Shown: positions 1 through 62,935, counted from the stretch's first letter. The stretch is 64,000 nt of DNA from Candidatus Nanoarchaeia archaeon (GCA_041653515.1 JBAZFG010000002.1:125632-189631); one strand, 5' to 3'. A program made the numbers and translations. Notes: generated from the sequence alone by a model not told the origin.

Positions 1-198
1 AAATATAACTGCGGCAAGCTAATCAGACCATTCATAAAAAAACACAAAAAGGAAGGGGTTAAAAGATTATTGTATAAAAAGTCATTTATAAGTTTTGAAT
101 CATTAAAAAAAGAACCAATTACTTATATGGGCTTTTTATTTATGAAATCTCTGGAGTTTACTGCGTGGTGCTTTGGTATCCTAAGAAGCTTTTTCTGA
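1..198 (+). CDS. 3' end of an ORF entering from upstream of the window (65 codons, no recognisable domain)
   Basis: Frame 1 is open from base 1 to TGA at 196-198. It overlaps the convergent radical SAM gene by 18 nt, as most convergent pairs here do. Confidence 0.25.
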   Translation, partial: KYNCGKLIRPFIKKHKKEGVKRLLYKKSFISFESLKKEPITYMGFLFMKSLEFTAWCFGILRSFF

Positions 199-1704
199 TT
201 TATTACCAGCAATTTTTAACTGCCTTGGTTTAAGTAAATCACTTGTTAGATAAGTTTTTAGTTTTTCAATGCTAAACTTCAAGTTATTGAAACTCATAAG
301 TTTGGGCAATATGTTACTGCAAAAGAAGATTGGATTTAATATATGTTTGATTCTTGTTTTATAAAATCTTTGTCTTGCTTCACCAACCAATTTGTTTAAT
401 TCACTTTCACTGAACTTTTTAGTTGGATAATAAGCATAAGATGTTTCTGCATCAGGAATTTCACTATTTAGCAATCCTTCTTTTTTGTATATATCATACA
501 ACTCAGTTCCTGTATAAGGTTGTGCGATATAAAATATTGCGTGGTCTATTCCAGATTCACAAGCATACTTAATCGTTTTTTCTATATCATCACGTGTTTC
601 ATAGGGGAATCCAATTATAAAATTAGCAGTAGTCCAAATACCTTTTTTGTTCATATATCTAATTAATCTTTTTGTTTTTTCAAGGTCAACAGGTTTTCCA
701 ATGAACTTTAATGTATTCTCAGAGCCGGATTCAATAGGCATACACATTCTATAAAACCCTGCTTTCTTCATTATATCTATTGTTTCTTCATCAAGAATCC
801 ATACACTTAATCCTGCAGGTGCGTTTAAAGTAATCTTCAAATTAGCTTTAATTATCAAATTGCATACTTCTTTAACTCTTTTTTTGTTAAGTATAAATGA
901 GTCGTCATAGATTACTATCTCTTTAGCGCCATATTTGTTATGTAATTCCATTATTTCTTTGAATACTCTTTTTGCAGAGTGAGGCCTCCATCTTCTTCTC
1001 CACATAGTTTTAGTGCTGCAGAAGATGCAGTTGTACGGGCAGCCTCTGCTTGTGACCATGGTACAAATCGGCTGGTTTAAAGCATAATAAAAAGTTTCTT
1101 TACCGTTTTTCATGTAAAAATCCATGTCAAGTGCATCTCTGTCCGGCAATGGAAGTGTATCAATATTATTAATTAGTGGTCTATCTTTGTTTATTATTAC
1201 TCTTCCATTACTTTTGTATGTTAATCCTAACACATTCTTTAAACTTTTCTTGTTACTAATAGCATTGAGTAGCTCTAGAGTTGTTATTTCACCTTCACCT
1301 CTTATTATGTAATCTATATAATTTAGTTTTATCAGGTTCTCATGTTCCATTGTTGGGTGAACCCCGCCGAGGATTATCTTTATAGACTTAAAATTGTCTT
1401 TCAGTACTTTGGCCAAATTAAGAGCATCATCTTTATGTATTGTAAAATTGCTTGATATGCCAATAATATCCGGTTTTATTTTATTTATTTCATTAAAAAT
1501 GTTTTTGTTGTTTATACCCACCCTGTATAAATCTTTCTTTATTCTTGTAACCTTGTTTTGATTTAAGGCTATACAGTCAATTATCTTAACTTTATGTCCG
1601 TTCTTTTTTAAAACTGCAGATATGTATGCTAAACCAAGAGGTTCAGTTATGGTTAATTTTGGGTATTTGCTTATTATTGAGGGTTGTATTAATGCTATTT
1701 TCAT
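181..1704 (-). CDS. Class B (B12-binding domain) radical SAM enzyme
   Basis: CxxxCxxC cluster motif in SRGCPYNCIFCS. The N-terminal half looks like a B12-binding Rossmann domain (LGLAYISAVLKKNGHKVKIID, IIGISS, ILGGVHPT). ATGA overlap with the upstream gene. Confidence 0.8.
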   Translation of the reverse strand: MKIALIQPSIISKYPKLTITEPLGLAYISAVLKKNGHKVKIIDCIALNQNKVTRIKKDLYRVGINNKNIFNEINKIKPDIIGISSNFTIHKDDALNLAKVLKDNFKSIKIILGGVHPTMEHENLIKLNYIDYIIRGEGEITTLELLNAISNKKSLKNVLGLTYKSNGRVIINKDRPLINNIDTLPLPDRDALDMDFYMKNGKETFYYALNQPICTMVTSRGCPYNCIFCSTKTMWRRRWRPHSAKRVFKEIMELHNKYGAKEIVIYDDSFILNKKRVKEVCNLIIKANLKITLNAPAGLSVWILDEETIDIMKKAGFYRMCMPIESGSENTLKFIGKPVDLEKTKRLIRYMNKKGIWTTANFIIGFPYETRDDIEKTIKYACESGIDHAIFYIAQPYTGTELYDIYKKEGLLNSEIPDAETSYAYYPTKKFSESELNKLVGEARQRFYKTRIKHILNPIFFCSNILPKLMSFNNLKFSIEKLKTYLTSDLLKPRQLKIAGNKSEKAS

Positions 1705-29614: not shown

Positions 29615-31162
29615 ATGTATTTTAAGGAGCATCAATTGTTTTACTTGTTTCTCGCTGTGTTCACTCTTTTTTCTTTGTTTAATATTGATTTTACTCACTT
29701 GAATTCTGATGAGGGTTCTTATGCTTTGACTGCTGTGTTCTTTAATCGGTTGGTTGGTGATTGGCTGGCTAATCCTACAATTGACCCGTCTGCGTTGTTC
29801 TCTTACGCTAAAGCTTACTACGTGTTCTACCCTAAGTTCATGTTCCTTAATGGCCCGTTGCTTAATTTGATTAACGCGCCAATCTCTTTCTCGCCGCTAC
29901 TGATGAAGTTGGTCACGCTTGCGTTCTCTATTGGCACTATCATTGTTTTGTATCATTTTGTGTTATTATTCTTTAAGAAGGAGCCTGACGCACCACAACT
30001 TGCTTTATTGTCTGCTGTCCTGACTGCTACTTCCAGCGTCTTTTTTTATTCATCTATCACTATCATGCTTGACGTGCCGAGTATTTTCTTTTTTGTGCTC
30101 GCTTTGTTCTTGTTTTTTAAGAATAAGCCTTTGTTGACTGGTTTGTGTCTTGGCTTGAGTGTTTTGATGAAGGATGTTGCCCTGCCTTACGTGGCTATTT
30201 TCTGCTTGCTTATTATTAGGGATTTCCGCAAGCAGTGGAAGTTATTCCTCATGCTTGGCTTGTCATTGTTGCCTTATATTATTTTGATTGCTGCTTCTGG
30301 CGGGCTTGACATTTTTGCCCAATACCCTGCAAAACAATTATGGTATGTTGAGCGTCAGGGCGACCCTCAGTGGTATGATTTGTCCGGCTGGCTTTATTAC
30401 TGGCAGACTATTGTGGCTAATTATTCATTAGTGGTCCTGCCGTTCCTGTTCTTTGGTATGTATTACGCTTACAAGAGTGGCCATGGTTTCATAGTCTTAT
30501 TCATCTTATTATCATTCTTAGTTGTTACTCTTATGAGTGATAAGGCTGAGCGCCGAGTGCTTAACTCAGTGATGTTCTTGTCGCCGTTGATTGCTTTGGG
30601 CGCGGCCCGTTTTTATAATCATATTAAGTCACCTAATAGTCGTTTCTTATTATTGTTCATAATCACTTTGATGTTAGTGGTTCAACTGCCGTTGTTTAAT
30701 CAGCATCTTAGCGTGCCAATGGCTGAGGTGGCTATTGATTTGGTTAATGATTGTCCTGACTGCACTGTGTTAATTGCAAGCGAGACTGGTAATGCTTACT
30801 CTAGTTTCTTAATGTATGAGTCATTAATCCGTGATGAGAACGTGTCTTTGCGTTTCATCAGGCCGGCTGTGTTTGAGTCAATGAGCGCGCTTGAAGTGAT
30901 TAATTCTGAGCGCGTTAATCGCGTTGTAGTGATTGGTGATTTTGATTACTTATGGGCTAATTATGATTACCCTGTTTACTTGCCTCAGATTAATTTCATT
31001 GTTAACCGCTATCAGTTAATCAAGGCTTATGAGTCTGATGTTGTGGGCCACATCTTTGTTTTTGATACTGGTATCACTGACCATAAGGCTTTGCCGTTGT
31101 GCGTCTCGTCGCCGTCACTGGGTTCATCGTTTTGCACTGATGCTAAGCCTTCTTTTGCATAA
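29615..31162 (+). CDS. GT-C fold membrane glycosyltransferase-like protein (ArnT/PMT-like)
   Basis: Polytopic membrane protein with a first-loop acidic motif LNSDEGSYAL, followed by a C-terminal soluble domain. Confidence 0.55.
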   Translation: MYFKEHQLFYLFLAVFTLFSLFNIDFTHLNSDEGSYALTAVFFNRLVGDWLANPTIDPSALFSYAKAYYVFYPKFMFLNGPLLNLINAPISFSPLLMKLVTLAFSIGTIIVLYHFVLLFFKKEPDAPQLALLSAVLTATSSVFFYSSITIMLDVPSIFFFVLALFLFFKNKPLLTGLCLGLSVLMKDVALPYVAIFCLLIIRDFRKQWKLFLMLGLSLLPYIILIAASGGLDIFAQYPAKQLWYVERQGDPQWYDLSGWLYYWQTIVANYSLVVLPFLFFGMYYAYKSGHGFIVLFILLSFLVVTLMSDKAERRVLNSVMFLSPLIALGAARFYNHIKSPNSRFLLLFIITLMLVVQLPLFNQHLSVPMAEVAIDLVNDCPDCTVLIASETGNAYSSFLMYESLIRDENVSLRFIRPAVFESMSALEVINSERVNRVVVIGDFDYLWANYDYPVYLPQINFIVNRYQLIKAYESDVVGHIFVFDTGITDHKALPLCVSSPSLGSSFCTDAKPSFA

Positions 31163-33958: not shown

Positions 33959-35506
33959 TTGTTAATGCTAGATAAGTTATGGCAGTACGTAGTTGATAAT
34001 AAAGCGTTCTTCATAGTTATTCCATTAATATTGTTATGGACTCGTTTTGATTACGAGTCTTTTGCGATGAGCGTGACCCCGTTTGGCGTGCCGTTAGATG
34101 ATGCTTATATTGGTTATCAGTTCGCGCGCAACTTTGCTCAGGGCAGAGTATTAGAATATAATGTTGGCGAGCAGACTACTGGCGCGTCAACCTTGTTATG
34201 GCCTTTGGTGATGGCATTGATTTACTTATTGACTGGTTACTTATACCCTAATTACGTGATTGCTTTTCTAGTCATATCAAAAGTCACTGCCACAATCCTT
34301 TACTTCTTGTCAATCACTGGCATTTATTATTTGAGCCAGAAGTATTATTTCAAGAATAAGTTTGCTAGCGTGATGCTCTGCTCGTTCCTTGCTTTAGAGT
34401 TGCACATGCTTTGGGGCACGCTGAGTGGGATGGAGATGTCATTGTTTGCTTTCCTAATAACGTTCATGCTGATTGCTTTGCGTGAGAATAAGATTAAGCT
34501 TGGCGCAGTGCTTGGTGGTTTGATTGGTTTAACAAGACCTGAGGGCATGGTTTTGTACCCTGGGTTAATTCTCTTATTATTCTTCTTTAAGTTAGTTAAG
34601 ACTAAGAAAATAGTTTTTAGGGAAGTTAAAGAATTATTATTGCAATTAATTATTTTTGTTGTGATAATGATCCCTTGGCCAATCCTTAATTACATGATTT
34701 CAGGCAAGCCTTTGCCAGCGACTTTTTACATGAAAGGCGGCGTGGTTAGTCTTGCTAATTTGTTGGGTGGTTTCACGTTCGTGTTTGACGTGCTTAATTT
34801 GTTTGGCAGTGATTACGCTTTGTCATTATTATTCGTGGCTGGCGTGATTATTTATTTTGCGCTGAAGAAAGAGTTCAGTCCTGAGGCCTTACTTGCTATA
34901 ATCTTCATGGTTCTTTACGGCACAGCAATCCCTAACCTGACTGGTTTTGGTCGTTATTACATGCCTGTTTTCCCAATAATCGCTTTGGTTGCTTTCTACT
35001 CATTCAAGTTAATTGAGGGTGTTTTACCTTCTAAGTTTAAGAAGTTTGGTTCAGCGTTATTAATGCTCGTGCCAATGATAATAATCACTGTTGTGGCTTC
35101 ACCAATGGCTAATTATCAATTAAGTAATTATGATGTTTGGAAACAAGTTTATGGACATAACGTTTATAGTATTAATCATTTTGAGGTGGCAATGGCTTAC
35201 TGGTTGATTGATAATTCACAAATAACTGATGTTGTTGGCACTTGTGATATTGGTGCGCCTAGTTTTATTGCTAACCGCTACTTGGTTGATGTGTTTGGTT
35301 TGATTGGGCCTGAGGTCAGGTCTTGGAATGGAACTTATGATAGTTACTTGCGTTATCGCAACGTTACTTATTATATTGATTACCCTGCTAACGCTAATGA
35401 TAAAGTTAAGGCTAATTGCACTATTGTTTACAATACTACTTACTTGTCAATGATTACTATTACTGCCGGTTACCAGATGGCTATCTATAAATGCGAGTGG
35501 CTTTAA
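33959..35506 (+). CDS. Polytopic membrane protein, GT-C-like
   Basis: First-loop motif VPLDDAYIGYQFARNFAQG, about 12 TM segments and a C-terminal soluble domain. The likely start is the ATG at 33965. Confidence 0.5.
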   Translation: MLMLDKLWQYVVDNKAFFIVIPLILLWTRFDYESFAMSVTPFGVPLDDAYIGYQFARNFAQGRVLEYNVGEQTTGASTLLWPLVMALIYLLTGYLYPNYVIAFLVISKVTATILYFLSITGIYYLSQKYYFKNKFASVMLCSFLALELHMLWGTLSGMEMSLFAFLITFMLIALRENKIKLGAVLGGLIGLTRPEGMVLYPGLILLLFFFKLVKTKKIVFREVKELLLQLIIFVVIMIPWPILNYMISGKPLPATFYMKGGVVSLANLLGGFTFVFDVLNLFGSDYALSLLFVAGVIIYFALKKEFSPEALLAIIFMVLYGTAIPNLTGFGRYYMPVFPIIALVAFYSFKLIEGVLPSKFKKFGSALLMLVPMIIITVVASPMANYQLSNYDVWKQVYGHNVYSINHFEVAMAYWLIDNSQITDVVGTCDIGAPSFIANRYLVDVFGLIGPEVRSWNGTYDSYLRYRNVTYYIDYPANANDKVKANCTIVYNTTYLSMITITAGYQMAIYKCEWL

Positions 35507-36897
35507 GCAGAGTTATTAATGTAGAATACTATTAGTTGCGCTTGAGCTGCTGATGGGTATGCTTTGATTGGCATGATGAACGAGTAGTTAAGAGTGTAAG
35601 CATAAGCAGGGTATTGTTCGTAAGCGCTGATAACTAGGAATGAGTAATTACTTACTTGTTGGAGGAATAATTCTTCAGTGGCTGGGAACGCGTCAACTGT
35701 TTTCTCGCTGTAATAAGTTAGTTGTGGCACGCTGTTAGCCATGACGTTGCCTTCGTAAGGCAGTAAGAACTCGCCTGCTTGCTTGACATATAAGTATGAA
35801 TCCTTAGCATTATTAATGCTTGTTAACCCTGTTGGCAGGTTCTCAATAATAATGATTATTGTTATTATCGCTAACGCGTAATTAATGATTTGCTTGTTTT
35901 TACTCACGTAACTAATAATGAAGCTTGCGCCAAGAATAGCTGATAAGCAAGCAAAAGGCAGTAAGTGTATTAGGAACCTAACTTCTTTGACGCTGGTTAA
36001 CAATGAGTAGAACGCTAAGTAAATGAATAAATTAAGTGCTATGAACTGCACTTTCTTATTCTTTAATTTGAAGATGATTGGTATGATGCCAATGAACACT
36101 AGTAAACCCATTAATATACCATAATTAAACAGCATGCTAGTTATGTAATAGAACATGTCACCTGCTTGCGCTCCACCAGTCGCGTTAACATTAAATGATA
36201 GGAATGATAGTGGCGTGTATACTGGGTTGTTGAATACTATGATGTCATAAATCATTAGTGGCGCGTAACCGATTAACGCGCCAAACAACCAATAATAATC
36301 CTTTAATTTTTTCTCTTTATTAATTAATGAGTAAGCAAGGTATACTACGCTCCCAATTATTGCCGTGAACTTAATACTAGCTGCTAAACCCAATAATAAA
36401 CCACTAGGCAACCGCTTGCCTTTAATGAATAATAACGCGCTTAGCACTAATAGGAACGCGCTTGGCACATCAATAGTGAACCGTAGTGACCAGTAAAGGA
36501 AGACCCATTGAAAACACATTATTAACCCTGTAATAATCCCATACTTCTCGCCTAATAATTCCTTACCTAAGTAATAAGACGCGATTGTTAAGCCCAACCC
36601 GAATAAGATGTTAATGAACCTGATTACTAATTCATTATAACCAAAAGGCAATGATAACCCATATAATATTGCTGGGTAAACGATTGACCTGCCATCCCAC
36701 CAACCAGTTGTTGGCGTGCCAATAAACAAGCTTTTAGTCATCACTAAGTATTGAGCCTCATCCCACCAGACAGTGCTATAAGCACTAATTAATGGCAGTC
36801 TTGTTATCAGGAAGACCGCACTGATTAAACCAACCCAGAAGTACTTATTATTCACTAAATCCTTTAAGTTAATCTCGTCATTATCATTCATATTCAA
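35503..36897 (-). CDS. GT-C fold membrane glycosyltransferase (ArnT/PMT, GT39/GT83-like)
   Basis: First-loop motif VWWDEAQYLVMTKSL; polytopic. The likely start is the ATG at 36891 (MNDNDEINL). Confidence 0.6.
   Translation of the reverse strand: MNMNDNDEINLKDLVNNKYFWVGLISAVFLITRLPLISAYSTVWWDEAQYLVMTKSLFIGTPTTGWWDGRSIVYPAILYGLSLPFGYNELVIRFINILFGLGLTIASYYLGKELLGEKYGIITGLIMCFQWVFLYWSLRFTIDVPSAFLLVLSALLFIKGKRLPSGLLLGLAASIKFTAIIGSVVYLAYSLINKEKKLKDYYWLFGALIGYAPLMIYDIIVFNNPVYTPLSFLSFNVNATGGAQAGDMFYYITSMLFNYGILMGLLVFIGIIPIIFKLKNKKVQFIALNLFIYLAFYSLLTSVKEVRFLIHLLPFACLSAILGASFIISYVSKNKQIINYALAIITIIIIIENLPTGLTSINNAKDSYLYVKQAGEFLLPYEGNVMANSVPQLTYYSEKTVDAFPATEELFLQQVSNYSFLVISAYEQYPAYAYTLNYSFIMPIKAYPSAAQAQLIVFYINNSA
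36822..36894. repeat. Direct repeat copy 1 (5' end of the GT-C gene); partner at 39059-39128
   Basis: The first 33 nt (tgattaaaccaacccagaagtacttattattca) are identical in both copies. The remainder has ~10 substitutions and one 3-nt indel. Confidence 0.85.
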
Positions 36898-36945
36898 TCA
36901 CTTCTTTATTATTAATAGTCATTCTTAGTTAATAGTTTTAACCTT

Positions 36946-38328
36946 TTAGTTTAAGAGAATCTTTGAAGGTTTAAAGAAATTATTCAGAATGTTCCTAATA
37001 GGTGCTTCCCTGTGTGAGATATTATTGAATATATAAGCTAGTTTGGTAAAGTCTATTAACTCATCGAATGGAATCTTTTCTTTCAGCAGGTAAGTGCCTT
37101 TCCTAATCATGTTGTCATAATCAAGCCATTCCATTGGTTTGATAACACCTTTCTTCTTGAGTAATTCATAATAATCTGCGCCAGGGTCAGGGGTAAATAC
37201 GTAGAAATGAGCAAAGTTAGTTTTATTCTTAATGGCAAAATTAATTGTTTTAATTATAGAATCCCTTGTTTCACCTGGTGCCCCAATGATGTGGCTTGCA
37301 CTAATTTCTATACCAAAAGCCTTTAATTTTTCAATACCTTGGCTTATCTGCCTGATTGTTAAGCATTTGTTCATTGACTTAAGTATTTCATCATCCCCTG
37401 ATTCAACCCCAACAAAAGCTCTCTTGTAACCTGTTTTATGCATTATATTGAGCAAGTCATTATTTATTGTGTCAAGCCGAGTGTTACTGCCCCATGTGAT
37501 GTCAAGTTTTTCTTTTTTAATTAGACTTGTGAATTCAGTGATAAACTTATGATTAGCTGTCATTGTATCATCATAAAACATAATCTTATTGGATTTAGTG
37601 ACGTCAATAACCTGTTTTATTTCATTGATAACACTTGATGGGCTTCTAAAATTAACCTTTTTTCCAAACATTTTTTTAGAAGCACAAAACTTGCAACCAA
37701 AAGGGCATCCTCTTGAAGCTATTAATACATTATAAGTATCTTCTGCCCCAAGTTTTCTATGATTACTTGGTTTGTATTTATCTAATGGGAATAAATCTCT
37801 GGCTGGGAAAGGCAGGTCATTCAGGTCAGTACTGGTTGGTTTTGTGGGGTTTAGGATGATCTTCTTGCCTTTTTTGAATACAATACCATTAACCTCTTCT
37901 AACCTTTGGTTAGCCAGTATCTTAACAATGGTTTCTTCTCCTTCACCTAGCACGCCTATATCAAAACAGTTTAATGAAATGGTTTCTAAAGGTTCTGATG
38001 TGATGTGAATGCCGCCTAGAATTATCTTTGCATTAGTTTTTGATTTTATTTCACTGGCTATCTTAATCGTATTCTTCATAAGAGGGGTTGTTGATGTAAG
38101 ACCTATAAACTTAATGTCCTTTGAGTTAATCCTTTTTATTACATCCTCAATAGTGAATTCTTCAACATTTAAGTCAAGGCATTCAACCCTATAACCTGCT
38201 TTTCTTACGCTTGCGGCAATGTATGCTAGTCCAAGGGGTAAGCTTACTGTTTGGTTTTCCTGTCTTGAGATGTTGAAATGTTTTTTTTCAAAAAAATCTT
38301 TTTGCGGGGGATTAATGAGCAATAACAT
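36946..38328 (-). CDS. Class B (B12-binding domain) radical SAM enzyme
   Basis: SRGCPFGCKFCAS cluster motif. N-terminal LPLGLAYIAASVRKAGYRVECLD, FIGLTS and ILGGIHIT form the B12-binding-type domain. Markedly AT-rich. Confidence 0.8.
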   Translation of the reverse strand: MLLLINPPQKDFFEKKHFNISRQENQTVSLPLGLAYIAASVRKAGYRVECLDLNVEEFTIEDVIKRINSKDIKFIGLTSTTPLMKNTIKIASEIKSKTNAKIILGGIHITSEPLETISLNCFDIGVLGEGEETIVKILANQRLEEVNGIVFKKGKKIILNPTKPTSTDLNDLPFPARDLFPLDKYKPSNHRKLGAEDTYNVLIASRGCPFGCKFCASKKMFGKKVNFRSPSSVINEIKQVIDVTKSNKIMFYDDTMTANHKFITEFTSLIKKEKLDITWGSNTRLDTINNDLLNIMHKTGYKRAFVGVESGDDEILKSMNKCLTIRQISQGIEKLKAFGIEISASHIIGAPGETRDSIIKTINFAIKNKTNFAHFYVFTPDPGADYYELLKKKGVIKPMEWLDYDNMIRKGTYLLKEKIPFDELIDFTKLAYIFNNISHREAPIRNILNNFFKPSKILLN

Positions 38329-38417
38329 ACTAGAAATTAGTTTAATTAGTATTATAAGACTTTTTTAAAATTTTTTTAGAATCATAAAATTTATTTTATA
38401 AAAACTCTAAAGATGAA

Positions 38418-38573
38418 ATGCGTAAGTACAAGCCAAAGTATTTGTACTTAATTAAACAATTAAAAGATAGAGGTGTTGTGCATACTAAAATAAGGAGTGA
38501 TAAACAGTTATGCATTAAGTTAACACCTACTGGTCATTTTCTGTTAAAAATTTTGAACAAAGCGGGTAATTAA
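38418..38573 (+). CDS. Small ORF (51 aa), possibly a winged-helix-like DNA-binding protein; below the ORF-track cutoff
   Basis: Translates to MRKYKPKYLYLIKQLKDRGVVHTKIRSDKQLCIKLTPTGHFLLKILNKAGN. Its TAA shares a TTAA with the convergent NUDIX stop, a pattern seen at three other convergent pairs. Confidence 0.3.
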   Translation: MRKYKPKYLYLIKQLKDRGVVHTKIRSDKQLCIKLTPTGHFLLKILNKAGN

Positions 38574-38986
38574 TTCCGTATTAAATTGATGAAATCAATT
38601 ATACCTGGTAATAACTCGTCTTCCTTTAATTTATTAATTTCAATCCATTTTAGGTCCTTTGTTTTATGGTCATCAAGGTTTGGTTGCCCGCTGATTAATT
38701 GTGATTCATAGCATAGTACAATAACGTGTTTTCTATGGTCAGGGTAATCCCATATATTTGTATGAACATATGGAATCATTTGTTTTGGTTTAACAATATA
38801 ACCTGTTTCTTCTAATACTTCTCTGGCCACAGCATCTTCAGGTTTCTCGCCAAAATCAATTTTTCCACCTGGTAATTCCCATTTTAAATGCGCGCCCGGC
38901 ATAATTTCTTCATCCCTTAGTAAAAGTAGTATTTCATTACCTCTTTTAATTAGGGCTGTCGCGACAATAATTATTTGGTCATTCAT
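38570..38986 (-). CDS. NUDIX hydrolase
   Basis: Nudix box GGKIDFGEKPEDAVAREVLEETG. Confidence 0.85.
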   Translation of the reverse strand: MNDQIIIVATALIKRGNEILLLLRDEEIMPGAHLKWELPGGKIDFGEKPEDAVAREVLEETGYIVKPKQMIPYVHTNIWDYPDHRKHVIVLCYESQLISGQPNLDDHKTKDLKWIEINKLKEDELLPGIIDFINLIRN

Positions 38987-39035
38987 GAATTAAAAATTAC
39001 CAGATAATCCATTAAGTATTTTGTGATTACCTTTT

Positions 39036-39125
39036 TTAAATTTGATGTTGGTCAGTGATGATTAAACCAACCCAGAAGTACTTATTATTCATTAGGTCTT
39101 TTAGGTTTATTTCATCTTCATTCAT
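39036..39125 (-). pseudogene. Orphan 5' fragment (29 codons) duplicated from the GT-C gene 35503-36897
   Basis: Translates to MNEDEINLKDLMNNKYFWVGLII..., against MNDNDEINLKDLVNNKYFWVGLIS in the intact gene. Its ATG overlaps the stop of the upstream gene as ATGA. It terminates after 29 codons. Confidence 0.7.
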
Positions 39126-40141
39126 ATTGTCATCCTCGCTATGATGAATGCTGCCACGCAGAATAATGATTCAATCATCATTAAGAATGGAGTGATGTAT
39201 TCTTCTCGTTTTACTAATCTCATAGCTAAGTGTGTTAGTGAGTAAGTCTTCTTGTACTTAGGTTTTAGTGTGCCATCTTTCTGTAGTTCACCAAGACTGC
39301 TGGCCTTGAATTTCTTACGAGCTTTTAATGCAAACTCAATGAACCAAGGCGCGAACGCTATTAGCGCGAACTTCTCAATATTACCAATAATGATTGACGC
39401 GCCAAACACTGTGCCAACTAAGTATGGCAGTGTGTCGCCTGGCAGGAAACTCGCTGGGTACTTGTTGAATTTAAGGAAGCCTGCAAGACAAGCAGCTGTT
39501 GTTAAAGCAAGTATTGCGCCTTCAATCGTGCCGTAAAAATATGAGTATAAGCCAGTGCCAGTGAGTAATACTAAGCCTAAGCCTGTTTCTAAACCATTCA
39601 TGCCCGCGAGCATATTAGTCGCGTTGCCGCTGAAAATAATGATTAATGGCACAATGATTAGTGGGTAAATAATACCAATATTAACTGGCCCAACAAATGG
39701 AATGCTCACTAAGCTTTGGCCAGCGTTAATAGCCATTAATGGCACAGCAGCTATTAGTGAGATAATCACTTTATGCCATTGTTTTAATCCGATCCGCGTG
39801 TCAATCTCATCCTTATTAGTTCGTTGTTCTGGTTGAATGTTAATATCATCAAGGGTTATTAGTAAGGTTATTGTTAACACGCTTGTTAGGCCGGCGAATA
39901 ATAATGTTAAATTAGTTCCTGCGTTAGTGACAAAGACTGTGATGAAAATATAAGCCATTAAAGCTGTTAGTAAACCAATTGCTATTGGTATGCCACCACT
40001 GGTCGCCATCTTAGGCTTATTTTTCTTCTGGATATCCATTGCCTTCATACCTATTTTCTCAAGGAATCGCTTCAAGTAAGGGGCTATTATTATTGTGGCC
40101 ACAAAACCAGTTATTATTGTTATGATTAATGATTCATCCAT
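39122..40141 (-). CDS. UDP-GlcNAc:dolichyl-phosphate GlcNAc-1-phosphate transferase family (MraY/WecA/AglH-type)
   Basis: NATNMLAGMNGLETG motif; about 10 TM segments; directly downstream of aglB. Confidence 0.8.
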   Translation of the reverse strand: MDESLIITIITGFVATIIIAPYLKRFLEKIGMKAMDIQKKNKPKMATSGGIPIAIGLLTALMAYIFITVFVTNAGTNLTLLFAGLTSVLTITLLITLDDINIQPEQRTNKDEIDTRIGLKQWHKVIISLIAAVPLMAINAGQSLVSIPFVGPVNIGIIYPLIIVPLIIIFSGNATNMLAGMNGLETGLGLVLLTGTGLYSYFYGTIEGAILALTTAACLAGFLKFNKYPASFLPGDTLPYLVGTVFGASIIIGNIEKFALIAFAPWFIEFALKARKKFKASSLGELQKDGTLKPKYKKTYSLTHLAMRLVKREEYITPFLMMIESLFCVAAFIIARMTI

Positions 40142-40177: not shown

Positions 40178-40339
40178 TGCCCCCGCAGTTTGGAATAAAC
40201 TTTTTTCAATAAGCAGGGGGATCAGGAAATGCCTAAAACTGAGGGGGATGTGCCCCCGCGGTTTGGAATAAACTTTTTTCAATAAGCAGGGGGATCAGGA
40301 AATGCCTAAAACTGAGGGGGATGTGCCCCCGCGGTTTGG
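40178..40339 (-). repeat. Tandem repeat, 73-bp unit x 2.2, each unit carrying one GC-hairpin element of the dispersed family
   Basis: Units start at 40178, 40251 and 40324 (tgcccccgc[a/g]gtttgg...) and are nearly identical. The array fills the aglB-to-GPT intergenic region, starting right after the aglB stop. Confidence 0.9.
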
Positions 40340-42958
40340 TTACCAGGCAGGACTGCCGTTATCAACCCATGGCATCATTGCAGTATAATTAATGTGATAA
40401 ATATTAATGTTGGTTGGGTCGTATTGTGATATTAATCCTCTTATGTTTAGTGAGTTACTTGAGTAGACTAATTCAAAACCAGGTATTGTTTCGTTCAATA
40501 AGTATAAGTGAGTCATGAAACGATCATTTAAGTCTGATGGGATGTGAATTAAGCCTCCTTCAATGAATTCAATACAAGAGTCAATGCCGTTAGTCTCATT
40601 AAAGTAAGTGCAGCCATTACCATAATCACAAACGCAATTGTATGGGTGAAGCGTGTTACTGCCCGTAGCTAAGTTATAAACTACTGCTTGTGGCTGACCA
40701 AAAGATTGGTCTTCAGCCATTGGTATTAAAACGTTTACTATGTAACTCTCGCCTTTAGGGAATAATACACCATCAATGATTGTGTCAGCGCCAACATAAC
40801 CTGGTGAGGCTAAGTAATTGAAAACTAGTAGTGTGCTGAATTGTTCAGGATTATACAAGTTATTATCCACTTGCTGGCTGTAAGTGTAAGGTGCGTAATA
40901 ACCTGGCCTGCCACCAATATTAGCCATCTGAACATATTTTAGTATATCATCATCCATGACTAATAAATAATTAGGCCTATTGCCTGTTTCATTATTCTTG
41001 AAGTAATCAAGTGAGTCATAAACCTCTGTCATGTTAAAGCCGCTAAACATTTGGCCGCCAATAACTTCATCCCATACTACTTGGAAGTTACCCCCATCAA
41101 CTGTTGTTGCCCGCTCGCCCATGGTTTGAACCCAGTAACCATAATCCCACCAATGAGTGAATACAGCGTTAGTGTCAGTGTTATTCCTAACCCAACTCAT
41201 TGATTCGCCCCAATCATTAGTGAAGCTTGGAATCATTGTTGAAGCATCTTCAACAATAACATAGTAACTCCATATTACTAATAGTATTGCGACTGCGTAA
41301 ATAGCTGTTGAGTAAACTTTATCACTTGTTATTTTGCTGATTAAATTATTTATCCGCTCAATAGCGTAAGCAGCTAATAACACGAATATTGGGGTGCTAG
41401 CAAAGACAATTCTTATTGCGCCCCTAGTTGCAATAACACTTAAAGCAAACCATAAGATGATTATTAGTTTACTTGGCGTTAACTCACCCCACTTACTGCT
41501 CTTATGGAATTTAATGTAAAATAATATTACTGTTAAAGCCAATAATGGCAGTGTTAGTAAGTAAGTGTTCTCAAAGAATAAATTAATTGCTTCATAACCG
41601 TTTAAGTTAACGAATTTGCTAAACATGAAGAATAAGATGAACACAGTAAACATTATCACTACTGATGTGGCTTTCTTGCCAAACTTACCTAATACTTCTT
41701 GAACTAATAATGCTCCACCAATAACAAATAATGGCACAAACCATTGAAGCCTATGCCACCAGTCAACCCCGTTAGGGTCATAGAACCATGGGGCTTGGTT
41801 TTCAGTAACTGAGACGCAGAAAGCACAAGTGCCAAAAGGGTTTAGTATTGTATCAAGAGCGCCTTGTAGTTTGGCGCCAACATCAAATAATCCAGTTAAT
41901 TGCATTACTGGCAGACCAACCATTATTAATACTGCCATCATTATTACGAAATAAAAATTATCAGGCCACTTCTTGTTCTTGATTAAGTTACTGATGAATA
42001 AATCATAAACAATTTTTAATCCAAGCACTAACGCTGTGATAGTTGGTATTAAGAACATATCAATCATGATTAAACCAAAACCATTATAGCGCAGGGTCAT
42101 TGTAGCGTTCATTAATATTATTGGGATGAACCACGCAAAGTAAGTGATTACGTTTTTATTGCTTAATTTACCCATTAAAGCAAGGAATAGGAATGCTAAG
42201 CCAATGCTGAAGAATAAGAAGTTAGCCCCACCCCAAGTCAGGCTTGATAAGCCAGCTAATACGCCTGATATTAACCCGTAAATTAATGCTTGTTTAGTCT
42301 TATTTGCCCTAATTGATTTGACTAATGCATAAATCATGCTAAACCAAAAGACTGTTGCAAGCGCTTCCTTATCACTAAACCCTGCCATGGTCCTGAATAA
42401 ATATGATGGGATTAATGATAAAAACGCTGTGGCAATTAACGCTGTTTTCTTGTTGAATATTTCTTTAGTCATTAAGAAAAAGAATATCATGCTTATTACA
42501 AACGCAACAACTGGGTAAATCATTGAATAACTCATTAGTTCGCCGCCAAATAATGGGTGAAATATTGTGTATAATCCTGCAACAAAGTAAGACACTAATT
42601 GGTGCTCCTTGAAAGTGCTAAAACCTTCTGGAAAATAACGAAATGAATCCATTTCAGGCAGGGTGCCCTGCTCCACTAGTGTTTCAGTGTAGCGGTAAAA
42701 AACATACGGGTCAAGACCAAGCAATAAACCATTGTATAATGGTATGCTTAGCATCCTAACCCAAGCCCCAACTAATATAATACTAATTAATGCTGCGTAT
42801 AATATTATCTTCTTATTTTCTTTGAGGAATTTTACTGCTTCGCCAAAATTAAGTTCATCCTCATCAGTGGTTGCTGGTTTTTTCTCTTTCTTATCACTGC
42901 TAAACCAGCCTTTAATCTTTCGCCCTATCTCCCCGAAATCAATTTCTTCATCACTCAA
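40340..42958 (-). CDS. aglB: Archaeal oligosaccharyltransferase AglB (STT3 family), long form
   Basis: Canonical HWWDYGYWVQ motif, first-loop GLDPYVFYRY, about 13 TM segments and a large C-terminal domain. Confidence 0.9.
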   Translation of the reverse strand: MSDEEIDFGEIGRKIKGWFSSDKKEKKPATTDEDELNFGEAVKFLKENKKIILYAALISIILVGAWVRMLSIPLYNGLLLGLDPYVFYRYTETLVEQGTLPEMDSFRYFPEGFSTFKEHQLVSYFVAGLYTIFHPLFGGELMSYSMIYPVVAFVISMIFFFLMTKEIFNKKTALIATAFLSLIPSYLFRTMAGFSDKEALATVFWFSMIYALVKSIRANKTKQALIYGLISGVLAGLSSLTWGGANFLFFSIGLAFLFLALMGKLSNKNVITYFAWFIPIILMNATMTLRYNGFGLIMIDMFLIPTITALVLGLKIVYDLFISNLIKNKKWPDNFYFVIMMAVLIMVGLPVMQLTGLFDVGAKLQGALDTILNPFGTCAFCVSVTENQAPWFYDPNGVDWWHRLQWFVPLFVIGGALLVQEVLGKFGKKATSVVIMFTVFILFFMFSKFVNLNGYEAINLFFENTYLLTLPLLALTVILFYIKFHKSSKWGELTPSKLIIILWFALSVIATRGAIRIVFASTPIFVLLAAYAIERINNLISKITSDKVYSTAIYAVAILLVIWSYYVIVEDASTMIPSFTNDWGESMSWVRNNTDTNAVFTHWWDYGYWVQTMGERATTVDGGNFQVVWDEVIGGQMFSGFNMTEVYDSLDYFKNNETGNRPNYLLVMDDDILKYVQMANIGGRPGYYAPYTYSQQVDNNLYNPEQFSTLLVFNYLASPGYVGADTIIDGVLFPKGESYIVNVLIPMAEDQSFGQPQAVVYNLATGSNTLHPYNCVCDYGNGCTYFNETNGIDSCIEFIEGGLIHIPSDLNDRFMTHLYLLNETIPGFELVYSSNSLNIRGLISQYDPTNINIYHINYTAMMPWVDNGSPAW

Positions 42959-42965
42959 TTTAACA

Positions 42966-43784
42966 TCATACTCCTAATGAAATGTAAACCTCTAATAATC
43001 CCCCGATTATTAATACAATGCTTGCAAGCACTATTAAATCAATGGAATCAAGTAATACCTCTTTAAATTTATTACTCTTAGGGTCATGCCTTATTACTGC
43101 TGCACTAATAATGCCTCCTGCAATGCCTGCGAGGAAGTAAGCAATTAATTCTGGCAGACCATGAACTAAGTAACGACCAAACCCTAGTGGCACTGCCTGA
43201 AAATAAGAAGACCAATTACTAATATTGGTTTTAATTGCGTTGCCAATAGCGACGCCGAGCACGCTTGAGTTCCACGTGATAATAAATATTGCGCCCGCCC
43301 CGTATAATAAGCTAAATATTAAGCAGAAGAGTAATACTTTGAAGTTATTGGCTAATATTATTTTTAATAAATCTGTTTGCACTGCATTGCCTTGAATGGC
43401 TGATGAGTTAATGCTTCTGATAGTGTTTATTTGCTCTGAGAATATTTTTGCGTTAAGGCTGTCAGGCATTATGACATACCATGTGGTGAATGTTATTAAT
43501 AATCCCATTGACATGAAGAATATTACGCCGAGCACATCTTTATGATTGCCAATTAAGGGGTATTGTTTTTTGGTGAAATCCTCTGATTCCTCTCGTTTTA
43601 GCACGTTAACTAGTAATGGCACGCCAGCCATTGTTGTAAGAAAAACCATACTTAATGACGGGTCTGATGGGAATAACCACATGCTGACTACTAAGCCAAG
43701 GCTCGCGTATATCACGCCTAATATTGTCATTTTCCAAGGCTTGGCTCTAACTTCTTTACTGCTTAATATTGACTCAAAAACCAT
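42966..43784 (-). CDS. Integral membrane protein, SpoIIM/DUF95-like
   Basis: Six or so TM segments. GLPELIAYFLAGIAGG resembles SpoIIM-family blocks. Assigned from memory only. Confidence 0.4.
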   Translation of the reverse strand: MVFESILSSKEVRAKPWKMTILGVIYASLGLVVSMWLFPSDPSLSMVFLTTMAGVPLLVNVLKREESEDFTKKQYPLIGNHKDVLGVIFFMSMGLLITFTTWYVIMPDSLNAKIFSEQINTIRSINSSAIQGNAVQTDLLKIILANNFKVLLFCLIFSLLYGAGAIFIITWNSSVLGVAIGNAIKTNISNWSSYFQAVPLGFGRYLVHGLPELIAYFLAGIAGGIISAAVIRHDPKSNKFKEVLLDSIDLIVLASIVLIIGGLLEVYISLGV

Positions 43785-44838
43785 TAATCACCTCTAATTT
43801 TCGGCTCCTGCCTTGGAATCCTTCGCCAGTATCAGTTGCTTTGATTAGTCCTTGTTTTCTTAATCGGTTAATGTAGCGCCTAAAACTCCTAATGCTTAAT
43901 TCGCCATGTATCTCGCGGTAATTCTTGTAAGCATCGCCGCTAATAATATTAGGGTTCTCTTTTATGATGTTAATTATTTTTTCTTCATGGTCGCTTAATT
44001 CCTGAGGTAAGTTAATAGTTATTGTCTTAATTGCTTCTTCAACGTGCTTGACTGTTATTTTCCTGCTAGCATCCCGCTCAGCCCTGCGTCCAGCTTCTAA
44101 TAATAAGTTGATTGCTTTCCTAACATCTGTGCCTGAATTAATACTTACTTCATGGACTACTCCTTCGCTTACAACACTTGGGTGGAACGCTTGTTTGGCC
44201 CTGCGTTCAATAATGTTTTTCATCTCGCGCGTAGTGTATGGCTTGAACTCCATGTTATTAAGGTTTAATCGCGACATTAATCGTGGTTCAATATAATTCT
44301 TGTACTTAGGGTTGTTAGTGACCATTAAGATGCATACCCGTTCTAAGTTTAGTAATGAGTATATTATGTCAAGGTCTTTTATTTTATCCACTTCATCAAG
44401 GCAGACTACTGCTCCTTTTTCCCTTAGTTTTCTCATCGCGTTATTAAGTATTTCTTCGGTCGGCACACCTTTAGGGGGATAGAGCATGCCTAATCGTCGC
44501 GCTATCTCTAAAGCTATTGTGTGAGTGGTCTGGCTTTCCCAGCAATTAATGAATACTGGTACAATATCGCTGGTCTCTTTTAATTCGTTAAAAATATATT
44601 TGATGCTCGCTGTCTTGCCAAGCCCAGGCATGCCGTGGATGAATACATTACTCCCTAAGCGATTTTGTAATAATGGTTTGATGAAACTAGCTATTTCTTT
44701 AATCTCATTGTCCCGTTCAGGCATTTCTTCTGGTTGGAATTTATAATCGAGAATAGTTTCATCCTTGAACAAAGTCTCGTTGTCCATCAGGATATCTTTG
44801 AATAAGCCCCCCATAATAGTAAGGGACACGCTAATCAT
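43774..44838 (-). CDS. cdc6: Orc1/Cdc6 replication initiator
   Basis: Walker A GMPGLGKT, Walker B VVCLDEVD and a C-terminal winged-helix region (RSFRRYINRLRKQGLI). Confidence 0.9.
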   Translation of the reverse strand: MISVSLTIMGGLFKDILMDNETLFKDETILDYKFQPEEMPERDNEIKEIASFIKPLLQNRLGSNVFIHGMPGLGKTASIKYIFNELKETSDIVPVFINCWESQTTHTIALEIARRLGMLYPPKGVPTEEILNNAMRKLREKGAVVCLDEVDKIKDLDIIYSLLNLERVCILMVTNNPKYKNYIEPRLMSRLNLNNMEFKPYTTREMKNIIERRAKQAFHPSVVSEGVVHEVSINSGTDVRKAINLLLEAGRRAERDASRKITVKHVEEAIKTITINLPQELSDHEEKIINIIKENPNIISGDAYKNYREIHGELSIRSFRRYINRLRKQGLIKATDTGEGFQGRSRKLEVINGF

Positions 44839-62791: not shown

Positions 62792-62935
62792 GGGCCCGTA
62801 GCGCAGTTTGGATAGCGCGACAGGCTTCTACACTCGACGCTTCGCGTCTCGTTCCGTCCTTCGGACGGCCGCTCGCTTAAAACGAGCGGGGGTGAGGATA
62901 CCTGTAGGTCGTGGGTTCAAATCCCTCCGGGCTCG
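62792..62935 (+). tRNA. tRNA-Arg (anticodon UCU) with a 69-nt intron at the canonical 37/38 position
   Basis: Acceptor GGGCCCG/CGGGCTC, D arm GCGC-agtttggata-GCGC, anticodon stem ACAGG/CCTGT with loop ct-TCT-a, T arm GTGGG-ttcaaat-CCCTC. Exon 1 is 62792-62830, the intron 62831-62899 and exon 2 62900-62935. No encoded CCA. Confidence 0.85.

What the first reader, a model, noticed from the sequence alone, without database searches (positions are those of the whole stretch)
36822..39128. 2.2-kb cassette (B12-radical SAM, tiny ORF, NUDIX) bracketed by ~70-nt direct repeats from a GT-C gene 5' end
36822-36894 covers the first ~23 codons plus the start region of GT-C gene 35503-36897. It is repeated at 39059-39128: the first 33 nt are identical, followed by ~10 substitutions and one codon indel. 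The upstream copy forms an orphan 29-codon ORF (MNEDEINLKDLMNNKYFWVGLII...). Its ATG overlaps the stop of the GlcNAc-1-P transferase gene as ATGA. This suggests the GT-C gene once followed that gene directly. In that case the intervening ~2.16 kb was inserted with duplication of the target. The inserted radical SAM gene is much more AT-rich than the flanking genes: the hand-counted line 37501-37560 has 16/60 GC, against 28/60 for 30301-30360.
Basis: partly seen in the sequence, partly recalled or inferred. Interest (0 to 1): 0.6.

Follow-up and report, generated by a model that had tools for sequence, protein, structure and literature searches.

The report
Gene cassette inserted into archaeal glycosylation operon
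In a DPANN archaeon, a small gene module (NUDIX hydrolase, a dead regulator, a B12 radical SAM enzyme) was inserted between two normally overlapping glycosylation genes, leaving a duplicated gene start as a scar; this is real but ordinary recombination-driven gene gain.

Summary
A 33-nt block (36822-36854 = 39059-39091) is identical in both copies. It is followed by 34-37 nt with 9 substitutions and one codon indel. The upstream copy is a 29-codon orphan ORF whose ATG overlaps the GPT stop as ATGA. Six independent relatives have AglB-GPT-GT-C with that same 4-nt overlap and no cassette, so the insertion reading holds. A closer relative (L097) also carries the cassette. It shows that the insert once held a third gene, a CARF plus winged-helix regulator. 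The window's 'tiny ORF' is the C-terminal remnant of that gene after a ~600-nt deletion. L097 also shows that the orphan once reached at least GT-C codon 36. The two repeat copies do not look like a simple target duplication followed by decay: 7 of the 9 differences are synonymous (simulated P about 0.0003-0.004). Between the window and L097, the cassette is about half as diverged as the flanking GPT end. The best reading is transfer of the cassette between diverged lineages by homologous recombination, with the orphan being the recipient's own former GT-C start. No transposase, integrase or terminal inverted repeats are present. The GC drop is mild (32.3%, 8th percentile). The cassette's function is unknown. 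Interest is low to moderate.

The parts
39122..40141 (-). GPT gene (GlcNAc-1-P transferase type, AglH/WecA/MraY superfamily). Its stop overlaps the orphan ATG as ATGA.
   Evidence: Pfam Glycos_transf_4, E=2.8e-24. It is syntenic with the GPT of six relatives.
39036..39125 (-). Orphan 29-codon ORF. It is the former 5' end of the GT-C gene, still at the ancestral position and still overlapping the GPT stop.
   Evidence: In relatives the GT-C ATG sits at exactly this position.
39092..39125 (-). A1, the diverged 5' part of the upstream repeat copy (11 codons plus 1 nt).
   Evidence: It differs from A2 by 9 substitutions and one codon indel. Seven of the 9 substitutions are synonymous.
39059..39091 (-). 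R, upstream copy of the 33-nt identical block. Homology with the resident GT-C ends at its 3' edge in this genome.
   Evidence: Logan k=31 contigs L001 and L002 break here.
38570..38986 (-). NUDIX hydrolase (MutT-like, 138 aa) with an intact Nudix box, GGKIDFGEKPEDAVAREVLEETGY.
   Evidence: Pfam NUDIX, E=2.9e-20. MutT-type matches fall below the NCBIfam cut-offs and also appear in the PDB search. It is 88% identical to P0133 in L097, with dN/dS about 0.13.
38418..38573 (+). The 51-codon 'tiny ORF'. It is the C-terminal winged-helix remnant of a CARF-like (HFX_2341_N) plus wHTH regulator gene.
   Evidence: It has no Pfam hit of its own. It matches residues 187-231 of the 232-aa protein P0145, which has HFX_2341_N and DUF6293_C (wHTH) domains. 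In L097 the same place holds a stop-riddled full-length copy collinear with the intact 192-aa protein of L014/L015 (tblastn 3e-25).
38389..38405 (.). Deletion scar. About 600 nt present in L097 (positions 824-1421, most of the regulator gene) are missing here.
   Evidence: The blastn alignments of L097 to the window cover 39223-38406 and 38388-38079.
36946..38328 (-). B12-binding radical SAM enzyme (460 aa, CPFGCKFC cluster motif), substrate unknown.
   Evidence: Pfam B12-binding E=1.5e-21 and Radical_SAM E=1.3e-26. No NCBIfam equivalog cut-off is reached; the best hits are HpnJ, BchE and PhpK. The nearest homologs outside L097 are about 50% identical. The N-terminal 83 codons are 89% identical to L097, with dN/dS about 0.10.
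36892..36925 (-). Probable vestige of a GPT 3' end, now the AT-enriched spacer upstream of the resident GT-C start. It may serve as a promoter (inference).
   Evidence: Anchored alignment to the GPT 3' end, P about 0.003-0.02. In the best-aligned ~20-nt stretch the mismatches are G/C in GPT against A in this copy.
36855..36891 (-). A2, the diverged 5' part of the downstream copy. It holds the first 12 codons of the functional GT-C gene.
36822..36854 (-). R, downstream copy of the 33-nt identical block, inside the functional GT-C gene.
35503..36891 (-). Resident GT-C-fold glycosyltransferase gene (462 aa), displaced 2,234 nt from its ancestral start position.
   Evidence: Pfam Glyco_transf_22 and PMT_2. 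P0001 is 100% identical over 462 aa. Orthologs of 57-59% identity follow GPT directly in relatives.

Best explanation
The window comes from a DPANN ('Candidatus Nanoarchaeia') genome. In this clade the ancestral order is Cdc6-SpoIIM-AglB-GPT-GT-C, with the GPT stop and the GT-C start overlapping by 4 nt.

A three-gene module was inserted into the first ~110 nt of the GT-C gene. The module is a MutT-like NUDIX hydrolase, a divergently oriented CARF plus winged-helix regulator, and a B12-binding radical SAM enzyme. The GPT/GT-C junction segment ended up on both sides of the insert. The left copy stayed coupled to GPT and became an orphan stub. The right copy heads the still-functional GT-C gene.

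No transposase or integrase is involved. The most likely route into this genome is homologous recombination with DNA from a diverged relative that already carried the module. In that reading the orphan (A1+R) is the recipient's own former GT-C start, which was functional until the event. A2 is the donor lineage's GT-C start. The 33-nt identical block R marks the crossover or a later conversion tract.

Since then the regulator has decayed, by deletion here and by stop codons in L097. NUDIX and the rSAM remain under purifying selection.

Shown: ancestral adjacency, the insertion, the duplicated junction, the regulator remnant, selection on the cassette genes, and the mosaic divergence pattern. 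Inferred: the recombination route, which allele came from which lineage, and any function of the module.
For: 1. Six independent relatives show GPT then GT-C with a 4-nt overlap and no cassette.

2. L097 comes from an independent sample and assembly. It shows a GPT 3' end, an eroded GT-C stub, NUDIX, a regulator pseudogene and the rSAM start. This confirms the left junction and shows the insert is shared. Its stub includes 26 nt that are 25/26 identical to window GT-C 36813-36788, beyond the window's own repeat boundary.

3. A1 and A2 differ at 9 nt, of which 7 are synonymous. The null model is in-situ duplication with a neutrally evolving orphan. Under it, 2 or fewer nonsynonymous differences among 9 occur with P=0.0003-0.0035.

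4. All 9 differences lie outside the 33-nt block R. The probability of this is 0.0017, and the probability of an identical run of 33 nt or more anywhere is 0.017.

5. Between the window and L097, third codon positions differ at 15/33 in the GPT end and at 46/222 in the cassette genes (Fisher P=0.004). Over all sites the counts are 22/99 and 89/930 (P=0.0005). The cassette was therefore shared more recently than the backbone. The A1/A2 divergence of 25% matches the backbone's 22%.

6. Genes of this cluster have discordant identities among relatives. L055 has GPT at 76% but GT-C at 46%; L093 has GT-C at 58% but GPT at 38%. Recombination is therefore common in this cluster.

7. The module recurs elsewhere. 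rSAM orthologs of 44-50% identity lie next to NUDIX in L011/L012. In L013-L015 they lie near NUDIX and an intact CARF-wHTH gene.

8. The cassette holds no transposase or integrase ORF, and no terminal inverted repeats lie at its ends.
Against: - The selection and mosaic tests rest on 12 codons and 69 nt.
- The flank/cassette contrast rests on only 99 nt of GPT in L097.
- The right junction of L097 is not available, so the divergence of its resident GT-C start is unknown.
- R is partly deleted in L097's stub. A donor with an intact R-like stub is therefore hypothetical.
- The recombination model needs the donor's stub R, the donor's resident R and the recipient's R all to be identical, or else a later conversion event.
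- The cassette's GC and GC3 are only mildly atypical.
- The 46%-identical NUDIX homolog P0134 has no rSAM neighbour, and the L008-L010 rSAM ortholog has no NUDIX neighbour. The module is therefore not universally linked.
Confidence: 0.6

Rival explanations
1. A single in-situ insertion in an ancestor of this genome duplicated about 100-140 nt of the target. The orphan then decayed neutrally. A recent short gene-conversion tract from the resident GT-C homogenised the 33-nt block.
For: - The insertion and the flanking duplication are real.
- L097 shares the insertion, and its stub is visibly decaying through deletions and loss of the ATGA coupling.
- Gene conversion between direct repeats 2.2 kb apart is a well-established process (general knowledge).
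Against: - Seven of the 9 differences in the first 12 codons are synonymous (P=0.0003-0.0035 under this model).
- The window's stub is intact and in frame, whereas L097's is wrecked.
- The flanking GPT end is about twice as diverged from L097 as the cassette is. Pure vertical descent does not predict this.
Confidence: 0.25
2. There was no insertion into a gene. An ancestor held two copies of the GPT-GT-C pair, for example after integration of a foreign glycosylation segment, with the NUDIX/regulator/rSAM genes between them. Two later deletions trimmed the first GT-C to a stub and the second GPT to a ~30-nt vestige.
For: - This would explain the synonymous divergence between A1 and A2.
- It would also explain the possible GPT 3' vestige upstream of the resident GT-C.
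- Genes in this cluster show discordant histories.
Against: - It needs one acquisition plus two precisely placed deletions.
- No relative shows a duplicated GPT-GT-C pair.
- It does not explain the 33-nt identical block without a further conversion event.
- The GPT vestige has only weak statistical support.
Confidence: 0.08
3. This is an assembly artefact. Two strain variants were joined through the 33-nt shared block, or the true state is GPT-GT-C intact plus a separate 2,237-bp circle or tandem unit.
For: In the Logan k=31 assembly of SRR18595300 the contigs end at the 33-nt block on both sides. At k=31 the graph allows either pairing of the in-edges and out-edges.
Against: - A 33-nt repeat is spanned by ordinary 100-150-nt reads and by k of 55 or more. 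That the 191,793-nt source contig was built this way is my inference from usual assembly practice; it was not checked.
- L097 comes from another sample and independently shows the GPT end joined to a GT-C stub and then NUDIX.
- L002 shows the rSAM joined to A2.
Confidence: 0.03
4. The cassette is a transposon, an integron-like cassette or an integrase-mobilised element, and the flanking repeat is its target-site duplication or att site.
For: Direct repeats flank a compact block of genes that is absent from relatives.
Against: - The cassette has no transposase, integrase or other recombinase ORF. The only sizeable ORFs are NUDIX, the rSAM and the regulator remnant.
- No terminal inverted repeats lie at the ends.
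- A duplication of about 100 nt or more is far longer than transposase target-site duplications (general knowledge).
- Neither the rSAM nor the repeat was found in the viral contig collection.
Confidence: 0.03

Closest known systems
Gene-island gain by homologous recombination in flanking genes, or Campbell-type single-crossover integration that leaves a duplicated homology segment. This is well known for capsule, O-antigen and glycosylation loci.
   Same: A block of accessory genes sits inside a conserved surface-glycan locus. It is flanked by direct repeats derived from a host gene, and no recombinase of its own is present. Divergence is mosaic across the junctions.
   Different: The host is a DPANN archaeon. 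The homology segment is tiny (about 70-140 nt) and straddles a translationally coupled gene junction. The displaced gene survives only because its start was duplicated. The recombination route is inferred, not observed.
Class B (cobalamin-dependent) radical SAM enzymes, such as HpnJ, BchE, PhpK, Fom3, GenK, OxsB and Mmp10
   Same: An N-terminal B12-binding domain is followed by a radical SAM core with a CxxxCxxC motif.
   Different: It reaches no NCBIfam equivalog cut-off; the best hit is HpnJ at 177 bits against a cut-off of 578. The nearest homologs are uncharacterised DPANN and Patescibacteria proteins of 44-51% identity. Its substrate and chemistry are unknown.
MutT-type NUDIX hydrolases
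   Same: It has a canonical Nudix box and the same length. The best matches are MutT, 8-oxo-dGTPase and pyrimidine dNTP pyrophosphatase models.
   Different: It falls below every equivalog cut-off. Its substrate is unknown. It recurs next to a B12 radical SAM gene in some other genomes.
CARF plus winged-helix transcription regulators (Csa3-like, PADLOC class CARF3, Pfam HFX_2341_N with DUF6293_C)
   Same: The intact homologs (the L014 192-aa protein and P0145) have these domains. The window's remnant aligns to their C-terminal wHTH.
   Different: Only 51 codons remain here. The copy in L097 is broken by several stop codons. No CRISPR-Cas genes were seen nearby, but that was not systematically searched.

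Membership tests
Transposon / insertion sequence with target-site duplication | Encodes a transposase | tested here: not met
   The cassette ORFs are NUDIX, the rSAM and a wHTH remnant. No transposase domain appears in Pfam or NCBIfam.
Transposon / insertion sequence with target-site duplication | Terminal inverted repeats at the element ends | tested here: not met
   The repeat finder reports no inverted pair joining the ~36.9-kb and ~39.05-kb boundaries.
Transposon / insertion sequence with target-site duplication | Short (2-15 nt), initially identical target-site duplication | tested here: not met
   The repeat is about 70 nt here and at least 107 nt in L097. It is mosaic, with 33 nt identical and the rest 25% diverged.
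Integrase-mobilised integrative element | Tyrosine or serine recombinase gene next to an att repeat | tested here: not met
   No recombinase is present in the cassette or in the adjacent genes.
Insertion by homologous recombination (Campbell-type, or flanking-homology transfer) | The insert is flanked by direct repeats that are copies of a host segment, at a site that is empty in relatives | tested here: met
Insertion by homologous recombination (Campbell-type, or flanking-homology transfer) | The repeat copies are alleles from different lineages (hybrid junctions), and the insert and flank have different ages | tested here: inconclusive
   The synonymous bias (P<0.004) and the flank/cassette contrast (P=0.004 and 0.0005) support this. 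They rest on 36 nt and 99 nt, and no donor is known.
Insertion by homologous recombination (Campbell-type, or flanking-homology transfer) | Empty-site and occupied haplotypes, or an excised circle, exist in the population | not testable with these tools
   This needs read-level data. The Logan k=31 graph is compatible with both states but uninformative.
Class B (B12-dependent) radical SAM enzymes | N-terminal cobalamin-binding domain plus a radical SAM core with a CxxxCxxC motif | tested here: met
   Pfam PF02310 covers residues 31-137 and PF04055 covers 203-365. The CPFGCKFC motif is in the translation.
Class B (B12-dependent) radical SAM enzymes | Membership of a characterised subfamily (HpnJ, BchE, PhpK, MCR methylases and others) | tested here: not met
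   All NCBIfam scores fall far below the curated cut-offs. PDB sequence matches are weak: AprD4 at 1e-15 and OxsB at 3e-4.
NUDIX hydrolases (MutT type) | Nudix box GX5EX7REUXEEXGU within a fold of about 130-140 aa | tested here: met
   GGKIDFGEKPEDAVAREVLEETGY is present. Pfam NUDIX E=2.9e-20.
NUDIX hydrolases (MutT type) | Equivalog-level assignment to 8-oxo-dGTPase or another defined substrate class | tested here: not met
   The TIGR00586 MutT model scores 51.7 bits against a cut-off of 97.9.
CARF plus wHTH regulators | An intact CARF/Rossmann-like N-terminal domain followed by a winged helix | tested here: not met
   Only the last ~50 codons remain in the window. L097's copy has several in-frame stops. 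The intact homologs (L014, P0145) do have both domains.
Archaeal N-glycosylation operon (AglB with GPT and a GT-C glycosyltransferase) | An STT3/AglB oligosaccharyltransferase with the WWDYG motif adjacent to a GlcNAc-1-P-transferase-family gene | tested here: met
   Pfam STT3 for 40340-42958, and WWDYGYW is in the translation. Glycos_transf_4 for 39122-40141. Synteny is conserved in relatives.

The most novel reading that the evidence does not exclude
The 33-nt identical block makes the insertion reversible. Recombination between the two R copies would excise a 2,237-bp circle. It would also restore an intact GT-C gene, translationally coupled to GPT and starting with the orphan's still-coding first 11 codons. 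If cassette-bearing and cassette-free haplotypes interconvert in the population, A1 would spend time as a functional gene start. That would explain why it looks selected. The locus would then be a recombination-driven on/off polymorphism of a NUDIX plus B12 radical SAM module inside an N-glycosylation operon. Separately, the recurring NUDIX / CARF-wHTH / B12-rSAM trio could be an undescribed ligand-regulated nucleotide-modifying or defence-type system, shared between DPANN archaea and Patescibacteria.
Probability: 0.1. Interest if true: 0.55.

Novelty: new member of a known kind. Interest (0 to 1): 0.3.

Why it matters
This is a clean, datable example of how a streamlined DPANN genome gains accessory genes inside an essential-looking operon without breaking it. 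The start of the interrupted gene is duplicated, so both the upstream coupling scar and a working downstream gene survive.

It also flags a recurrent NUDIX / CARF-wHTH / B12 radical SAM gene neighbourhood of unknown function in DPANN archaea, with the rSAM-NUDIX pair also seen in Patescibacteria. That neighbourhood may deserve its own study.

As genome evolution it is ordinary. Glycan loci are known recombination hot spots, and no new mobility mechanism needs to be invoked.

Tried and rejected
- Composition as evidence of foreign origin. Cassette GC (32.3%) and GC3 (0.32 and 0.25) are low but within the window's spread, so this was kept only as weak support.
- Extending the stub homology beyond GT-C codon 36 up to the NUDIX start. 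This was not significant (shuffle P about 0.26-0.30).
- Polarising the A1/A2 substitutions with outgroup GT-C starts. The relatives are too diverged (57-59% aa identity) for this to be reliable.
- Viral or mobile origin. Neither an rSAM relative nor the repeat was found in the viral contig collection.
- P0134, a 46%-identical NUDIX homolog on a large contig. It has no rSAM or regulator nearby, so the module is not obligatory.
- PADLOC. The rSAM and NUDIX match only generic candidate models (PDC-M51A and PDC-S07). I treat these as family-level similarity, not evidence of a defence role.
- Rfam and ARAGORN found nothing in or around the cassette.
- Two literature searches found nothing specific on a B12-rSAM/NUDIX pairing or on DPANN glycosylation-cluster insertions.
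- The coincidence of an 8,492-nt 'longest contig' for a GT-C homolog and an rSAM homolog was checked. It proved irrelevant: L093 has no rSAM.
- The sigma-70 promoter scanner was not used, because the host is an archaeon.

Full report
**Organism and locus**

The window is archaeal. It holds a Cdc6/Orc1 gene (43774-44838), a SpoIIM-like gene, an STT3/AglB oligosaccharyltransferase (40340-42958, WWDYGYW motif), a GlcNAc-1-P-transferase-family gene (GPT, 39122-40141) and a GT-C-fold glycosyltransferase (35503-36891). All lie on the minus strand. The GT-C and rSAM proteins are identical to database entries named 'MAG: Candidatus Nanoarchaeia archaeon', on a 191,793-nt contig. Overall GC is 37.4%.

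**Checking the observation**

The repeat finder pairs 36822-36884 with 39059-39121 at 84% identity. The first 33 nt on the + strand are identical. A 31-mer from this block occurs exactly twice in the window, against 0 expected from shuffles.

Read in gene orientation, each copy begins with an ATG, at 39125 and at 36891. The following 34/37 nt differ by 9 substitutions and one codon indel. The 33-nt identical block R comes next, and homology then stops.

The upstream copy is a 29-codon ORF whose ATG overlaps the GPT stop as ATGA.

**Ancestral state**

I fetched the loci that encode GT-C and GPT homologs. Six independent lineages show AglB-GPT-GT-C with a 4-nt stop/start overlap and nothing between GPT and GT-C. 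They are L003-5/L054, L006-7, L016, L055, L093-4 and L095-6. GPT is 63-76% identical to the window's in five of these six lineages; the exception, L093, is 38%.

Cdc6 and SpoIIM lie upstream in the relatives with long enough contigs. DUF362 lies downstream in one lineage (L003/L004/L054), and a homolog of the 515-aa convergent gene lies downstream in L055. The orphan's ATG therefore sits exactly where the GT-C gene starts in relatives. The 2.2 kb is an insertion relative to the ancestral order.

**A closer relative that carries the insert**

The NUDIX protein has an 88%-identical homolog, P0133, on the 1,731-nt JGI contig L097. L097 aligns to window 39223-38406 at 82% nt identity and to 38388-38079 at 92%. 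It contains:
- the last 33 codons of GPT, ending in TAA with no ATGA coupling;
- an eroded GT-C stub;
- an intact NUDIX gene;
- about 600 nt that are absent from the window;
- the first 83 codons of the rSAM.

The stub in L097 lacks most of the first 12 codons. It extends further into GT-C than the window's stub does: L097 150-175 matches window 36813-36788 at 25 of 26 positions. The duplicated GT-C segment was therefore once at least 107 nt long, and the two lineages have eroded it differently. Beyond that point I found no significant similarity to GT-C.

**The 'tiny ORF'**

The ~600 nt extra in L097 carry, on the opposite strand, a gene with an HFX_2341_N (CARF-like) domain. It is collinear over its whole length with an intact 192-aa CARF plus winged-helix protein in L014/L015, but it is interrupted by several stop codons (tblastn 3e-25).

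The window's 51-codon ORF (38418-38573, +) aligns to the C-terminal winged helix of that protein. It also aligns to residues 187-231 of the 232-aa CARF-wHTH protein P0145. It is therefore a pseudogene remnant left by a ~600-nt deletion whose scar lies at 38389-38405. The original insert was a three-gene module of about 2.8 kb.

**Are the cassette genes alive?**

Between the window and L097, NUDIX has dN=0.06 and dS=0.47. The rSAM N-terminus has dN=0.037 and dS=0.35. Both are under purifying selection.

The rSAM has the B12-binding and radical SAM domains and a CPFGCKFC motif. It reaches no characterised NCBIfam subfamily. NUDIX has a canonical Nudix box and is MutT-like, but it falls below all equivalog cut-offs.

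rSAM orthologs of 44-50% identity occur in other DPANN archaea and in a Patescibacteria bacterium. They lie directly next to a NUDIX gene in L011/L012. In L013-L015 they lie near a NUDIX gene and an intact CARF-wHTH gene. They are not near either in L008-L010. The trio is thus a recurrent, though not obligatory, neighbourhood.

Neighbouring genes in those loci include NDK, a dNK/AAA_18-like kinase, an ATP-cone protein, a HAD hydrolase and an inositol monophosphatase. This hints at nucleotide-related chemistry, but that is inference only.

**How the repeat arose**

Under one-step target duplication the stub should decay neutrally. Three results argue against that.

First, 7 of the 9 differences in the first 12 codons are synonymous. 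I simulated a neutrally evolving stub paired with a resident copy that accepts only synonymous changes. Two or fewer nonsynonymous differences among nine arose with P=0.0003-0.0035 across a range of mutation biases.

Second, all 9 differences lie outside the 33-nt block (P=0.0017). An identical run of 33 nt or more anywhere has P=0.017.

Third, the window and L097 differ much more in the flanking GPT end than in the cassette. Third codon positions differ at 15/33 in GPT and at 46/222 in the cassette genes (P=0.004). Over all sites the counts are 22/99 and 89/930 (P=0.0005). The A1/A2 divergence of 25% equals this backbone divergence of 22%.

In addition, about 30 nt upstream of the resident GT-C ATG weakly resemble the GPT 3' end (P about 0.003-0.02). 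In the best-aligned ~20-nt stretch the mismatches are G/C in GPT against A in the resident copy. This is what a released coding fragment in an AT-rich genome would show. It also creates a TATA-like run (TTAATAATAAA) centred about 24 nt upstream of the ATG (inference).

The reading that fits best is that the cassette moved between diverged lineages by homologous recombination at this locus. The stub (A1+R) would be the recipient's own GT-C start, and A2 the donor's. R would be the crossover or conversion tract.

Gene-by-gene identity discordance among relatives shows that this cluster recombines. L055 has GPT at 76% but GT-C at 46%. L093 has GT-C at 58% but GPT at 38%.

I give this full reading a confidence of about 0.6. 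The tests use very short sequences and no donor is known.

**Rivals**

- In-situ duplication followed by neutral decay and a late 33-nt conversion remains possible (0.25).
- An ancestral double GPT-GT-C pair trimmed by two deletions is less parsimonious (0.08).
There is no recombinase, there are no terminal inverted repeats, and the repeat is far too long.
- Misassembly is unlikely. The Logan k=31 contigs L001 and L002 do break exactly at R. However, L097 independently confirms the GPT-stub-NUDIX join, L002 confirms the rSAM-A2 join, and a 33-nt repeat is spanned by ordinary reads.

**Composition**

The cassette is 32.3% GC, the 8th percentile of equal-sized windows. The cassette genes' GC3 values lie 0.8 and 1.7 sd below the window mean. 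This is compatible with foreign origin but not diagnostic. Other parts of the window are more AT-rich.

**Verdict**

The event is an accessory-gene insertion into a conserved archaeal N-glycosylation operon, with duplication of the interrupted gene's start. It is shared with at least one related lineage, it is partly decayed, and its divergence pattern points to recombinational exchange rather than a dedicated mobility system. It is a new example of a known kind of genome change. The only open and potentially interesting question is what the NUDIX / CARF-wHTH / B12 radical SAM module does.

Noticed in passing
window 40178-40339: A 73-nt unit is repeated 2.2 times in tandem (99% identical) in the AglB-GPT spacer. 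The spacer is 198 nt here but only about 35 nt in relatives L003 and L006. The unit occurs nowhere else in the window, and its predicted RNA fold is no better than shuffles (z=-0.26).
   Followed up: partly
window 181-7279: A second B12-binding radical SAM gene (181-1704, 33% identical to the cassette rSAM) overlaps by 4 nt the end of two very large membrane-protein genes. One of these has a weak AftD-type GT-C match. The block has only 26-32% GC, the most AT-rich part of the window. B12 radical SAM genes therefore sit next to GT-C-type genes twice in this window.
   Followed up: partly
window 38406-38569 compared with L097 662-823: The regulator pseudogene remnant is only 8% diverged between the window and L097. 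That is less than the third codon positions of the neighbouring live genes (about 21%). L097 also has a 2-nt gap here that breaks the 51-codon frame. The stretch may hold a conserved non-coding element, such as the hairpin AAGTACAA...TTGTACTT, or it may have a different history.
   Followed up: no
L055 788-2221; L093 2788-3813: Gene identities are discordant within the AglB-GPT-GT-C cluster among relatives. L055 has the closest GPT (76%) but a GT-C only 46% identical. L093 has a typical GT-C (58%) but a GPT only 38% identical. This suggests repeated gene replacement in the cluster.
   Followed up: partly
window 62792-62935: Rfam finds a tRNA spanning 144 nt (model positions 1-71), while ARAGORN found none. 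It is probably an intron-containing archaeal tRNA.
   Followed up: no
L026/L063 4-468; L074 9336-10553; L075 7611-8828; L077 12582-12944: More distant B12 radical SAM homologs (29-36% identity) lie within about 6 kb of the GPT gene in three other DPANN lineages.
   Followed up: no
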